Part shown: positions 60,001 to 63,000 of the stretch, piece by piece | Position numbering within the stretch: position 1 is the first letter of the stretch | Layout of the letters: the number at the start of each line of letters is the position of its first letter | Assembly: GCF_013167455.1 (NCBI RefSeq) | Contig: NZ_CP038328.1 | DNA from: Escherichia coli O157:H7 | GTDB lineage: Bacteria; Pseudomonadota; Gammaproteobacteria; Enterobacterales; Enterobacteriaceae | DNA: 64,000 nt | Direction: 5' to 3' (one strand) | Program-made: the position numbers

Positions 60001-63000
60001 TACAGCGGAGTCTGGCTCAAAGACGTACACTAATAAACCCGACGGGAAATCATTGCAGGCTGTATGTTGTTTATTTCCCTGGAATAATGTATTTGCGGAT
60101 CGGAAAGTACCGAAGATAACCATTAATGACAATACGGTGACGTGGTCGAATCTTGAGCAGGGTATGGGATCTTATATTTATACATTCTGGGGATAAGTGT
60201 TATGTACGGTTTGAGCATTATGAAGCCGGATGGCAGCGTATGGATAAGTCCAGGTTTTACGCCGCAGTGTCTGATCAACAAAGGCACCATACCGGCGACT
60301 GAAAAGTCTTTTTTTAAAACATCAATCCCGTCAGGCAAAAGTTGTTTTTTCTTTATCAGAACAGAGAAGAAGGCCGATGTCATGTACACGCATGAACAGA
60401 TTGATGGATATCATGCACTAAGGCTTCATGTAATTGTCAGGGGAACGAACCCTGGTGTTACGACGGTTTATGCTTTCGCGAATATGGTTACTCCACCTTC
60501 TGAGTATGGTATCGCCATGTATAACCCGGACGGTGAGATGATTTATCATGGCGAAATGATGCTGCTTGACGCGAAGTTAATACCTGTTGATATCAAATTT
60601 GAAAAGGACCTTGGATATCCATGCGCAATCATGCCTGCACTGGTCGGGTATTATAACTGGAAAAGAACTCCTTATGATCGACCGATTTATACCACATCCA
60701 CTGGTGCTACAGGAAATAAAATATATTCCTGTGAGCATTATTCCGGTGGTGCAACATGGGATATTCGAAAGCCGTATATAGATAAGGTCCTGGTTATTAA
60801 TACATCAGTATATGATTAGTTGAAGCGAGTCTTTAATATTCATTTAAAATGTCTAAAAAGATGTATTATTAAAAAGTTTAGCGTGTTATCTGAATACAGG
60901 ATATCTTAAATGAAGAGTATAGCAACACTGGTTGTGTGTGCAATCTCCGGGATTGCCTGTGTAAATTTATCTGCACATGCAGCAGAAGGAGAGCATACAA
61001 TTTCTCTGGGGTATGCGCACTTTCAGTTTCCGGGACTGAAGGATTTTGTAAAGGATGCGACTGCTCATAACAGGGAGACTTTCAGTCATTTCGTCAACAG
61101 AAACTACTTTTCTTCATTGGGCGAATATACAGATGGTCGGGTCAGTGGATATGAAGGCAAGGATAAAAATCCACAGGGCATTAATATCAGGTATCGCTAC
61201 GAGATAACGGATGATTTTGGCGTTATCACCTCTTTTACATGGACGCGTTCTCTCACTAACTCACAGACATTTATTGATGTGCAGTCAGCCGATCATACCA
61301 GGAAGATTAAGAATCCGGCAGCTTCTGCCAGAACGGATATCAGGGCGAATTACTGGAGTCTGTTAGCGGGGCCTTCATGGCGGGTTAATCAGTACATGAG
61401 TTTATATGCGATGGCAGGGATGGGCGTTGCTAAAGTTAGCGCTGACCTGAAAATTAAGGACAATATTAACAGTAGTGGCGGATTTTCTGAAAGCAACAGC
61501 ACGAAAAAAACCTCCCTTGCGTGGGCTGCAGGTGCACAGTTTAACCTGAATGAGAGTGTTACACTGGATGTGGCTTACGAAGGTTTCGGCTCTGGCGACT
61601 GGCGCACGAGTGGCGTTACTGCTGGCATTGGCCTGAAATTCTGACCTGTATCCGGTAACCGTTTACTACCCGCTGTGATGGCGGGTTTTTTATTGCCCGT
61701 ACAGGGCAAAAACCGTAAATTATGCGTGGGTGCCTTTCGGCTGATGGCTGGAGGGTGAACCTGAAGGCCTGATGTGGAAAGGCCCCGAGTCAACTTAACG
61801 TTAACCCGAGGCCCTAACACTTCGTACCTTAAGCAAGTAGAAGGTTAGCGCCTCTCTGTAAAAGGAGTCAAGCGCTATGTCGCAAAAATCGCTTATCACC
61901 GTCACAATTTGCATGACGGTTATCTTCACCATCTGGATGTTGCACGGTTCACTGTGTGAGTTCCGGCTGAATTTGTGGGGAGCGGAGTTTGCGGCGTTCT
62001 TACAGTGTAAGCAGTAGGAAAACCGCGACGGGGACGAGAGTCCCCGTCAACTGGTTGCTGAGGTTCAGCCGATATGGCACCCGTTTCAGGTGAGAGAATG
62101 AACGATAAAATTCTCTGGTATATGCAGCGTGTTGTGAGAAATTCCCGCAACCCTGAATTTATGAATGAAGTTAAAGACGCCTGCCTTAAAAAGCAGGCGT
62201 TTTGTTTTGAGGCACCTGATGGCTTTTTGGTGCTGCGTTCTGTGCTCAGTGCTGATGGTATCCCTTATGTTCTGGTGTTGCTGGGCGTGTGTACGGGGAG
62301 TAACAGCGTTGAGCGTTACCTGCCGGAGGTGAAGACATTAACCCATCTGGCTGGCGGACGCTGGGCTGAGTTCCATACGGCAAGGCGGGGATTTATCCGG
62401 CTGGGAAAACGACTGGGCTTTGAGCGAATGCCGGATGATGAGGATGGCTTCATGGTGTTCAGGATAGCGGTCTGACTGCTACAGTTTTCATCATTGTGTT
62501 TAAACCAACATTGTAATTCACATTCTGACCCTGCTCCGGCAGGGTTTTTTGTTATCCAGGGGGCCATTATGGGTGGAAGTAAAGGCGGTGGTGATACCAA
62601 AGTAAAACCAACAGCAGCGCAAATAGCACAGGAAGAAGTGGCCTGGAAAGGGTGGCAGGATTACAAAAATATCCTCCGCCCGGCTGAAGATAACTTCATG
62701 GAAAAGGTCGATGACCTGAACAGTGAGCAGCAGTACGACAATATTGCTGGCACCACAAATCTGGGGTATCAGAAACAGTTTGGCGAAGCACGGAAGGAGC
62801 TTGCGGGTAATCTTGCTCAGTCCGGCGTTGACCCATCCAGTGGTCGTTTTAATGCGGTAATGAATGCGAACCAGAGTGACCAGGTAACCGGGCAGATTGA
62901 CACAACCACACGGGGGCAGGTATCGCAGGCAGATAAGTATGTTGCCGGGCTACAGGATGTTGCTGCTCTCGGTTCTGGTCAGAAGGCGGATGCGTTACAG

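What the first reader, a model, noticed from the sequence alone, without database searches (positions are those of the whole stretch)
61700..62017. Unlisted Hok/Gef-like type I toxin ORF between lom and downstream tail genes
A 46-codon ORF (61877-62017) with a strong RBS encodes MSQKSLITVTICMTVIFTIWMLHGSLCEFRLNLWGAEFAAFLQCKQ: one transmembrane helix followed by SLCE and AAF motifs, as in Hok and Gef. It is below the ORF-track length cut-off. The 180 bp upstream should then carry mok/sok-like elements. This would be a prophage-borne type I toxin-antitoxin locus.
Basis: partly seen in the sequence, partly recalled or inferred. Interest (0 to 1): 0.5.

Follow-up and report, generated by a model that had tools for sequence, protein, structure and literature searches.

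The report
Second Hok/Sok toxin locus, Stx phage
The small ORF after lom is a real Hok-family membrane toxin gene with an antisense "Sok-like" RNA antidote, but databases already name it and a preprint has tested this exact peptide, so it is an ordinary, known kind of element.

Summary
Observation confirmed. ORF 61877..62017(+) encodes the stated 46-aa peptide behind an AAGGAG RBS. It matches Pfam HOK_GEF (E 4.7e-8) and PHROG 251 (E 2.8e-24).

The window is 100% identical here to Stx phages 933W and VT2-Sakai (Sp5). Their reference records leave the ORF unannotated. RefSeq names it "Hok/Gef family protein" (WP_000078907.1). The identical peptide is entry 72_1589 in a 2025-26 preprint, whose text implies it was toxic on overexpression.

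It is not the published hokW-sokW of Sp5. That locus lies about 13 kb downstream on the other strand, outside the window.

Fifty-three distinct relatives show the R1-type RNA architecture:
- a conserved hok promoter;
- a 5' tac element pairing with a 3' fbi element, with compensatory changes;
- a hairpin after the stop codon;
- start-codon sequestration;
- a conserved antisense promoter and a minus-strand-specific terminator, giving a ~62-nt Sok-like RNA whose 5' tail matches the target loop.

Two things differ from the paradigm. No mok leader ORF is conserved. The 933W clade has also lost the terminator that follows fbi in relatives.

Already known, low interest.

The parts
61693..61721 (+). 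Predicted hok-mRNA promoter: -35 TTGCCC (61693-61698), 17-nt spacer, -10 TAAATT (61716-61721). It abuts the T-run of the lom terminator (stem 61668-61686).
   Evidence: Hexamers and spacing are conserved across relatives whose upstream flanks are unrelated (-10 TAGATT/TAGAAT/TAAATT). It scores 8/12, below the threshold of the consensus scan, which found nothing. The transcription start is inferred, not mapped.
61728..61744 (+). 5' end of the hok mRNA, the tac-like element GGGUGCCUUUCGGCUGA. It pairs with fbi in the full-length RNA and with GGAAAGGCCCC (about 61776-61786) once fbi is removed.
   Evidence: Position 1 of the Rfam sok model aligns here. MFE folds of the full-length and truncated RNA show both pairings. 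Helices 1 and 2 are supported by covariation, with 4 of 6 pairs in helix 2 compensatory.
61774..61848 (+). Short upstream ORF (GTG, 24 codons) in the position where mok would lie. It stops at TAG 61846-61848, 28 nt before the hok ATG. It is probably not a functional mok.
   Evidence: Listed. Upstream ORFs differ in start, frame and end even among near-identical alleles. Only 16 of 53 alleles have an upstream ORF that runs past the hok start codon.
61774..61835 (-). Predicted Sok-like antisense RNA of ~62 nt. It has a single-stranded 5' tail UUGCUUAAGGUAC, then a terminator hairpin (61781-61814) and the tail UUUCC.
   Evidence: MFE -32.5 kcal/mol, z -5.57. The hairpin region is more stable on the minus strand in 53/53 relatives, mean -23.2 against -12.9 kcal/mol. 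Conserved G-U pairs would be C-A mismatches on the plus strand. The ends are inferred.
61808..61854 (+). Target hairpin of the hok mRNA (GAGGC...GCCUC). Its loop CUUAAGCAA (61828-61836) is complementary to the 5' tail of the Sok-like RNA.
   Evidence: The hairpin forms in the MFE fold of the 3'-truncated RNA. The loop and tail are the most variable part of the leader among alleles.
61842..61871 (-). Predicted sok-like promoter on the minus strand: -35 TTGACT (61871-61866, overlapping the hok SD), 18-nt spacer, -10 TAACCT (61847-61842).
   Evidence: Present in 53/53 distinct relatives: -35 TTGnnn/TTTACT, spacer 17 (18 in the window clade), -10 TAACCT 49/53, TATCCT 3, TAAGCT 1. The hokW-sokW locus reads TTGCCT-17-TAACCT at the equivalent position, and promoter mutations there abolish antitoxin activity (PMC8621323). 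The consensus scan did not flag it.
61862..61867 (+). hok Shine-Dalgarno sequence AAGGAG
   Evidence: Read directly from the sequence. Relatives keep an AGGAG/AAGGAG-type motif here.
61877..62017 (+). hok-family toxin gene, 46 aa: a hydrophobic (presumed transmembrane) stretch at about residues 6-22, then SLCE and AEFAAFLQCK with two invariant cysteines (C27, C44).
   Evidence: The identical peptide is 72_1589 in preprint 10.1101/2025.08.07.668861.
61879..61995 (+). Long-range helix that sequesters the start region: GUCGCAAAAAUCGC (61879-61892) pairs with GCGGAGUUUGCGGC (61982-61995). It resembles ucb/dcb. A local stem, UAGCGC 61846-61851 with GCGCUA 61872-61877, adds to it.
   Evidence: In helix 8, 9 of 12 pairs never vary and 99.7% of cells are paired. 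Codons 1-4 and 36-38, 40 and 41 each use a single codon in all 52 full-length relatives, which indicates synonymous constraint.
62027..62048 (+). Stable hairpin just after the stop codon (GACGGGGAC GAGA GUCCCCGUC). It is presumed to be the 3' protective stem of the processed, active mRNA.
   Evidence: 5 of 9 pairs show compensatory changes and 99.8% of cells are paired. hokW has a hairpin at the same position.
62065..62082 (+). fbi-like fold-back element UCAGCCGAUAUGGCACCC, complementary to the mRNA 5' end
   Evidence: GCACCC is invariant in all 53 relatives and GGCACCC in 51 of 53. CGGCUG/CAGCCG is replaced by CGAC/GUCG in Salmonella relatives. The MFE fold closes the 5' end with this element (z -6.68).
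62177..62209 (+). Candidate 3' terminator for the hok mRNA in this clade (hairpin plus TTTTGTTTTG). It lies inside the phrog_610 gene. The assignment is uncertain.
   Evidence: Terminator scan. Relatives have a terminator ~35 nt after fbi that the 933W clade lacks.

Best explanation
This is a hok/sok-type type I toxin-antitoxin module carried as a moron between lom and the next phage gene of a 933W/Sp5-type Stx prophage.

Shown or directly supported:
- The + strand encodes a 46-aa Hok-family inner-membrane peptide.
- An mRNA running from about 61728 folds so that its 5' end (tac) pairs with a 3' element (fbi, 62065-62082).
- The start codon is buried in conserved helices.
- The opposite strand carries a conserved promoter and a strand-specific terminator for a ~62-nt antisense RNA, fully complementary to the leader at about 61774-61835.

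Inferred by analogy with R1 hok/sok and Sp5 hokW-sokW:
- The full-length mRNA is translationally inert and stable.
- Slow 3' trimming back to the post-stop hairpin removes fbi. The 5' end then refolds, and the target hairpin exposes the loop CUUAAGCAA.
- The unstable Sok-like RNA binds that loop through its 5' tail, and the duplex is destroyed, with RNase III as the likely agent.
- When Sok synthesis stops, through prophage loss or induction, Hok is made and depolarises or lyses the cell.

Unlike R1, no mok leader ORF is conserved, so how ribosomes gain access to the hok start site is unknown.
For: Protein:
- Pfam PF01848, E 4.7e-8.
- PHROG 251, E 2.8e-24.
- 45% identity to K-12 HokA and 37% to HokW.
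- A 46-aa subfamily in E. coli, Shigella and Salmonella with invariant C27 and C44.
- dN/dS 0.17-0.36.
- PGAP names it a Hok/Gef family protein.

Toxicity: the identical peptide, 72_1589, was cloned and assayed. Only three other sequences are reported as non-toxic.

RNA:
- Rfam sok model hit at 61728-61890, 35.6 bits, E 6.7e-6.
- The consensus structure over 53 distinct sequences is 98.8% paired. Fifteen pairs change on both sides, against 2-4 in the slid controls and 0/500 shuffles reaching the observed value.
- The MFE folds reproduce the closed full-length state and the refolded truncated state.
- Folding z-scores are -6.68 for the mRNA and -5.57 for the antisense RNA.
- The antisense promoter is conserved in 53/53 relatives.
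- The terminator hairpin is more stable on the minus strand in 53/53 relatives.
- Each element corresponds in position to one in the experimentally validated hokW-sokW locus (PMC8621323).
Against: - No transcript ends, no Sok RNA and no Hok protein from this locus have been observed in anything I could read.
- Neither promoter passes the generic sigma-70 consensus scan.
- The Rfam hit is below the gathering score (35.6 against 59), whereas hokW-sokW scores 113.5.
- No mok ORF reaches the hok SD in the window, and none is conserved. In R1, mok translation up to the hok SD is mandatory (PMC9841398).
- In the predicted truncated fold the AUG is still paired.
- The 933W clade lacks the terminator that follows fbi in relatives, so 3'-end formation and processing are uncertain here.
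Confidence: 0.85

Rival explanations
1. Silent relic. The toxin ORF and RNA folds are intact, but this allele cannot be translated. It has no mok-type leader ORF and has lost its own terminator. It would then resemble the chromosomal hok loci reported as unable to mediate post-segregational killing.
For: No upstream ORF reaches the hok SD, whereas R1 requires this. The terminator after fbi is missing in this clade. Chromosomal hokA, hokB and hokC loci were reported inactive for killing (preprint introduction). Truncated copies without a promoter exist elsewhere (L014, L091).
Against: Every other element is intact and under constraint, including in relatives that also lack mok. The peptide is under purifying selection and is identical across many Stx phages. 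The lack of mok is a feature of the whole subfamily, not a lesion of this copy.
Confidence: 0.12
2. Late-gene lysis accessory rather than an addiction module. The peptide is made mainly from the Q-antiterminated late transcript that crosses the locus on the same strand, and it helps holin and endolysin. The antisense RNA only keeps it silent in the lysogen.
For: The ORF is co-oriented with all neighbouring phage genes. The sok-like promoter faces incoming late transcription. The other hok locus of the same phage, hokW-sokW, speeds growth arrest and doubles phage release after induction.
Against: The module has its own conserved promoter and the tac/fbi closure. It also occurs at the ends of P2-like and other prophages in unrelated transcriptional contexts. 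No expression data exist for this locus.
Confidence: 0.25
3. Chance ORF in an intergenic spacer, with no gene.
For: It is only 46 codons long, and many ORFs of this size occur by chance in the window. It is absent from the original 933W and Sakai annotations.
Against: Significant profile matches, a conserved subfamily with purifying selection, and reported toxicity of the identical peptide.
Confidence: 0.01

Closest known systems
Hok cluster 72 (entries 72_1589 and 72_1621) of Escalera-Maurer et al., bioRxiv 10.1101/2025.08.07.668861; RefSeq WP_000078907.1 'Hok/Gef family protein'; PHROG 251
   Same: The amino-acid sequence is identical to 72_1589 and to the PGAP protein. This is the same gene.
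   Different: Nothing differs at the protein level. Those sources describe only the CDS, and the preprint states that Sok, Mok and the mRNA structure were not analysed. The RNA anatomy given here adds to that.
hokW-sokW of Sakai prophage 5 (Takada et al. 2021, PMC8621323; mokW = ECs_1245)
   Same: It is in the same phage and has the same element order: promoter, GGGUGC 5' end, Sok terminator hairpin, TAACCT antisense -10, AAGGAG SD, post-stop hairpin and GCACCC fbi. It is an experimentally shown type I TA system that aids lysis on induction.
   Different: It is a different locus, at 933W ~58.4-58.8 kb on the opposite strand and outside the window. HokW is 51 aa and only 37% identical. hokW has an in-frame mokW extension, which ours lacks. 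Rfam sok scores 113.5 bits there against 35.6 here. The recognition loop differs: the duplex energy of the 20-nt 5' tail is -33.0 for the cognate mRNA and -17.2 for hokW mRNA.
hok/sok of plasmid R1 (the paradigm)
   Same: tac/fbi closure of the full-length mRNA, refolding after 3' trimming, a cis-antisense Sok RNA whose promoter overlaps the hok SD region, and a small membrane toxin (description in PMC9841398; our folds).
   Different: R1 needs the 70-codon mok translated up to the hok SD, and no such ORF is conserved here. The location is a prophage rather than a plasmid. The peptide is 46 aa rather than 52 aa.
HokA of E. coli K-12 (cluster 93 in the preprint)
   Same: It is the closest characterised protein: 45% identity, a shared M-QK N-terminus, W-M, SLCE, E-AAFL-CK, and both cysteines hard-coded (HokA sequence; cysteine remark).
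   Different: It scores below the NCBIfam HokA equivalog cut-off (38.4 against 89 bits). It falls in a different 60% cluster (72 against 93), is four residues shorter, and is prophage-borne.

Membership tests
Hok/Gef toxin family (Pfam PF01848) | Significant match to the family profile | tested here: met
   PF01848 i-E 4.7e-8, residues 8-44 against model positions 6-42 of 42. PHROG 251 E 2.8e-24.
Hok/Gef toxin family (Pfam PF01848) | About 50-aa peptide with an N-terminal hydrophobic stretch and the conserved L-C-E motif plus a C-terminal Cys/Tyr | tested here: met
   Hydrophobic stretch at about residues 6-22. S25-L26-C27-E28. C27 and C44 are invariant in 31 subfamily members. The family logo positions L30, C31 and E32 are described.
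Hok/Gef toxin family (Pfam PF01848) | Toxic to E. coli on overexpression | not testable with these tools
   From the literature: the identical peptide 72_1589 was assayed in pAZ3, and only 19_179, 60_1482 and 69_1540 were non-toxic. This is a preprint and I could not see the figure.
HokA equivalog (NCBIfam NF007290) | Score at or above the curated cut-off (89 bits) | tested here: not met
   38.4 bits. It is HokA-like but not a HokA orthologue.
hok/sok type I TA locus | Cis-encoded antisense RNA (Sok) in the mRNA leader, with its own promoter and terminator | tested here: met
   The promoter is conserved in 53/53 relatives. The terminator hairpin is minus-strand-specific in 53/53. z -5.57. This is computational only; the RNA has not been observed.
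hok/sok type I TA locus | Rfam sok (RF01794) at the gathering score | tested here: not met
   35.6 bits against GA 59, E 6.7e-6. Relatives L006, L064, L085 and L088 also fall below GA, whereas hokW-sokW scores 113.5.
hok/sok type I TA locus | Long-range 5' tac / 3' fbi pairing that closes the full-length mRNA | tested here: met
   MFE folds. Helices 1 and 2 are 98.4% and 93.9% paired, with 4 compensatory pairs.
hok/sok type I TA locus | mok leader ORF overlapping hok, whose start region is the Sok target | tested here: not met
   In the window the only candidate (GTG 61774) stops 28 nt before the hok ATG. Upstream ORFs are heterogeneous, and only 16 of 53 alleles have one that runs past the hok start codon.
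hok/sok type I TA locus | Defined 3' end shortly after fbi, and 3' processing to an active truncated mRNA | tested here: inconclusive
   Relatives have a terminator ~35 nt after fbi. The 933W clade does not, and the next + strand terminator-like site is 62177-62209, inside a gene. Processing cannot be tested here.
hok/sok type I TA locus | Antitoxin RNA neutralises the toxin (genetic test), with RNase III involved | not testable with these tools
   This has been shown only for hokW-sokW and R1.

The most novel reading that the evidence does not exclude
This is a mok-independent branch of the hok/sok family. Hok translation would be gated only by RNA refolding and the Sok-like RNA. In 933W/Sp5 the module lies co-oriented inside the late transcription unit and has lost its own terminator, so Q-antiterminated late transcription running into the convergent sok-like promoter would switch Hok on as a second lysis-assisting toxin. 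That would make it partly redundant with hokW-sokW and could explain why deleting hokW-sokW alone only halves phage release.
Probability: 0.2. Interest if true: 0.45.

Novelty: already known. Interest (0 to 1): 0.2.

Why it matters
The value is mostly in annotation. The reference records of the two best-studied Stx2 phages, 933W and VT2-Sakai/Sp5, omit this gene, so 933W/Sp5-type phages carry two hok-type toxin loci rather than one.

The only functional study (Takada 2021) removed hokW-sokW alone and saw a partial effect on lysis and phage release. This second, intact locus is an obvious candidate for redundancy.

The subfamily also appears to lack the mok leader ORF that R1 requires. If confirmed, that would be a modest but useful point about how hok translation is gated.

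Tried and rejected
- I first assumed the ORF was the published hokW. This was rejected. The hokW primer and probe sequences have no match in the window. hokW maps ~13 kb away on the other strand in 933W and Sakai. HokW is a different 51-aa peptide.
- I looked for a mok ORF in all frames in 53 alleles and found no consistent start, frame or end.
- The generic promoter scan found nothing at either predicted promoter. Promoter calls therefore rest on conservation and on positional homology to hokW-sokW.
- I could not establish whether T1TAdb already annotates the mRNA and Sok RNA of this cluster. The stored Table S1 of the preprint was truncated, and the seed alignment gave no gapless match.
- Searches for WP_000078907 and ECs1236/ECs1237 in the paper library returned nothing relevant.
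- I did not attempt structure prediction for a 46-aa membrane peptide, because it would not discriminate between the hypotheses.
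Full report
**1. Observation**

The ORF 61877..62017 (+) exists as written. It has an ATG start and encodes 46 aa, MSQKSLITVTICMTVIFTIWMLHGSLCEFRLNLWGAEFAAFLQCKQ, with AAGGAG 9 nt upstream.

An ORF of this length would not be remarkable alone. The profile matches show that it is not chance:
- Pfam HOK_GEF, i-E 4.7e-8.
- PHROG 251 'MokW-like host killing', E 2.8e-24 over the full length.
- NCBIfam HokA model, E 9.1e-10, but 38.4 bits against a curated cut-off of 89.

BLASTP gives 45% identity to K-12 HokA and 37% to HokW.

**2. Where the window comes from, and what is already annotated**

The 461 bases around the ORF are 100% identical to phages 933W, VT2-Sakai (Sp5), Stx2 converting phage I and many other Stx phages. 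Related sequence occurs in 1674 of 5426 complete E. coli genomes.

The original 933W record and the Sakai reference have no CDS here; in Sakai the gap lies between ECs_1236 (lom) and ECs_1237. PGAP-annotated genomes call it 'Hok/Gef family protein', WP_000078907.1. A pharokka-annotated phage calls it 'MokW-like host killing'.

**3. It is not the published hokW-sokW**

Takada et al. 2021 (PMC8621323) showed that hokW-sokW of Sp5 is a type I TA system that accelerates growth arrest and doubles phage release after induction.

Their HokW is 51 aa and starts MKQQKAM. Their primers and probe have no match in the window. That locus maps to 933W ~58.7 kb, and in Sakai to ECs_1245 on the minus strand, about 13 kb beyond our locus.

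So 933W/Sp5-type phages carry two distinct hok-family loci, and the one in the finding was left intact in the deletion study (hit H5).

**4. Prior knowledge of this exact peptide**

Escalera-Maurer et al. (bioRxiv 10.1101/2025.08.07.668861, v2 January 2026) catalogue 1264 Hok peptides. The identical sequence is their 72_1589 in a 'high-abundance' cluster, and it was cloned as pAZ3-72_1589.

They report 42 of 45 tested homologs as toxic and name the three exceptions, none of which is from cluster 72. They say explicitly that they did not analyse Sok, Mok or the mRNA structure.

**5. The subfamily**

A protein search returns a tight 46-aa family in E. coli, Shigella and Salmonella. M1, Q3, K4, C27, A39, L42, Q43, C44 and K45 are invariant.

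Against relatives, dN/dS is 0.17-0.36. Against the L006 allele there are 7 synonymous and 0 non-synonymous differences.

The module sits at prophage ends. It follows ogr in P2-like prophages and follows the tail-fibre genes in lambdoid ones. It is sometimes tandemly duplicated.

**6. RNA anatomy**

I collected 58 distinct copies and aligned 53 that keep both ends.

The conserved block starts at a promoter: -35 TTGCCC at 61693-61698, a 17-nt spacer, and -10 TAAATT at 61716-61721, with TAGATT or TAGAAT in relatives. It ends just after GGCACCC at 62076-62082.

The RNAalifold consensus counted on the 53 sequences gives these figures:

| Measure | Observed | Controls |
|---|---|---|
| Cells forming a standard pair | 98.8% | about 35-41% in slid controls |
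| Pairs changed on both sides | 15 | 2-4 in slid controls |
| Shuffles reaching the observed value | 0/500 | - |

The informative helices are:
- **tac/fbi.** 5' GGGUGCC..UCGGCUGA (61728-61744) pairs with UCAGCCGA..GGCACCC (62065-82). Four of six pairs in the extension are compensatory; CGGCUG/CAGCCG becomes CGAC/GUCG in Salmonella.
- **Post-stop hairpin.** At 62027-62048, five of nine pairs are compensatory.
- **Start-region helix.** A nearly invariant long-range helix joins the first codons (61879-61892) to codons 36-40 (61982-61995). A local stem, 61846-51 with 61872-77, adds to it, and together they bury the AUG. Codons 1-4 and 36-38, 40 and 41 use one codon each in all 52 full-length relatives.

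MFE folding of 61728-62090 closes the 5' end onto fbi (-155.4 kcal/mol, z -6.68).

Removing everything after the post-stop hairpin makes the 5' end refold on itself. A hairpin then forms at 61808-61854 with the loop CUUAAGCAA.

**7. The antisense RNA**

On the minus strand, TTGACT (61871-61866, overlapping the hok SD), an 18-nt spacer and TAACCT (61847-61842) form a promoter present in all 53 relatives. The spacer is 17 nt outside the window clade. The -10 is TAACCT in 49, TATCCT in 3 and TAAGCT in 1.

The hokW-sokW locus reads TTGCCT-17-TAACCT at the equivalent place. Mutating that promoter abolishes antitoxin activity.

A transcript starting near 61835 would begin UUGCUUAAGGUAC, the exact complement of the target loop. 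It would end in a hairpin at 61814-61781 followed by UUUCC. Its MFE is -32.5 kcal/mol with z -5.57.

That hairpin region is more stable on the minus strand in 53 of 53 relatives, mean -23.2 against -12.9 kcal/mol. Conserved G-U pairs there would be C-A mismatches in the sense RNA.

The Rfam sok model, which is oriented with the hok leader, hits 61728-61890 at 35.6 bits, E 6.7e-6. This is below its gathering score of 59. As a control, hokW-sokW scores 113.5, while four relatives of our locus also stay below threshold. The subfamily is therefore a divergent branch that curated Rfam thresholds miss.

**8. What is missing**

*No mok.*
- Between about 61790 and the hok ATG the window has no ATG, GTG or TTG.
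- The only candidate upstream ORF (GTG 61774, 24 codons) stops at 61848.
- Across the 53 alleles, upstream ORFs differ in start, frame and end even between near-identical copies. Only 16 of 53 alleles have an upstream ORF that runs past the hok start codon, and in most Salmonella copies none does.
- In R1, mok translation up to the hok SD is required.
- In our truncated fold the AUG stays paired, so how translation starts is unresolved.

*No terminator after fbi in this clade.*
- Relatives have a bidirectional terminator ~35 nt after fbi.
- In the 933W clade, homology stops right after GGCACCCGTTT.
- The next + strand terminator-like site is 62177-62209, inside the phrog_610 gene.

**9. Mechanism and role**

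The most likely reading is an R1-type programmed switch:
1. The closed full-length mRNA is inert.
2. It is trimmed at the 3' end and refolds.
3. Sok-like RNA binds the exposed loop and the duplex is destroyed.
4. Hok is made when Sok production stops.

The steps up to the predicted RNAs and folds are supported here. Processing, RNase III cleavage and the trigger are inferred from R1 and hokW-sokW.

The biological role could be prophage addiction or help with lysis on induction, and this is not decided. The ORF is co-oriented with all neighbouring phage genes. Late transcription would therefore run into the sok-like promoter, which makes an induction-linked role plausible but untested.

**10. 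Verdict**

The gene is already annotated in RefSeq and PHROGs, and its peptide is catalogued and reportedly toxic. It is a known kind of element and a known member.

What this analysis adds:
- It is a second hok locus in 933W/Sp5, distinct from hokW-sokW.
- The RNA elements are now mapped.
- The subfamily lacks a conserved mok.
- This clade lacks the module's own terminator.

Noticed in passing
window 62177-62209 (+): A strong terminator-like hairpin (ACGCCTGC...GCAGGCGT plus TTTTGTTTTG) lies inside the coding sequence of the phrog_610 gene. It may be the 3' end of lysogen-expressed hok transcripts, read through by antiterminated late transcription.
   Followed up: partly
window 62074-62475 (+): The annotated start of L0129/ECs_1237 (ATG 62074) lies inside the hok fbi element. 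The PHROG 610 profile aligns only from residue 9, so the real start is probably ATG 62098.
   Followed up: partly
window 62026-62049 (-); also L014, L064, L088 at 3150-3173: The conserved post-stop hairpin is scored as a minus-strand terminator (tail CGGTTTTCCT) in the window and in all relatives checked. It may also block antisense read-through into the locus.
   Followed up: no
L049-L090, ~35 nt after fbi (e.g. L088 3237-3266): Relatives carry a bidirectional terminator, AAAGCCCGCAGCG...CTGCGGGCTTT, with compensatory variants in Salmonella. The 933W clade has lost it, and homology ends right after GGCACCCGTTT.
   Followed up: partly
L085 3001-3141 and 3491-3631; L086 3001-3141 and 3495-3635: Tandem duplicate hok modules of this subfamily occur in Salmonella. 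Each has its own leader, and the target loops differ.
   Followed up: no
A3 columns 1-25 (window 61815-61838, minus strand): The 5' tail of the Sok-like RNA and its target loop are the most variable part of the leader between alleles, while the terminator hairpin is conserved. This could reflect diversification of antitoxin specificity among co-resident copies (up to 8 places per genome).
   Followed up: no
L014 and L091, upstream of the ORF: These are truncated copies. The promoter and the 5' tac element are replaced by unrelated sequence, while the ORF, the sok-like promoter and fbi remain.
   Followed up: no
933W ~58.4-58.8 kb; Sakai ECs_1245 (L004 21340-21745, minus strand); outside the window: The published hokW-sokW is a second hok locus in the same phage. 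The Takada 2021 deletion left the present locus intact, which may explain the partial phenotype.
   Followed up: partly
window 37656-37930, 26595-26782, 16539-17163, 51240-51356, 12445-12516: Whole-window Rfam hits at the gathering score: STnc100 (+) next to AgvB (-); C4 antisense RNA and isrK (-); two sRNA-Xcc1 copies (-); an ALIL pseudoknot (-), which is an IS3-type frameshift site and so implies an IS element; and one tRNA (-).
   Followed up: no
L088 3308-3489 (-): The sRNA STnc540 lies immediately downstream of the hok module at the end of a P2-like Salmonella prophage.
   Followed up: no
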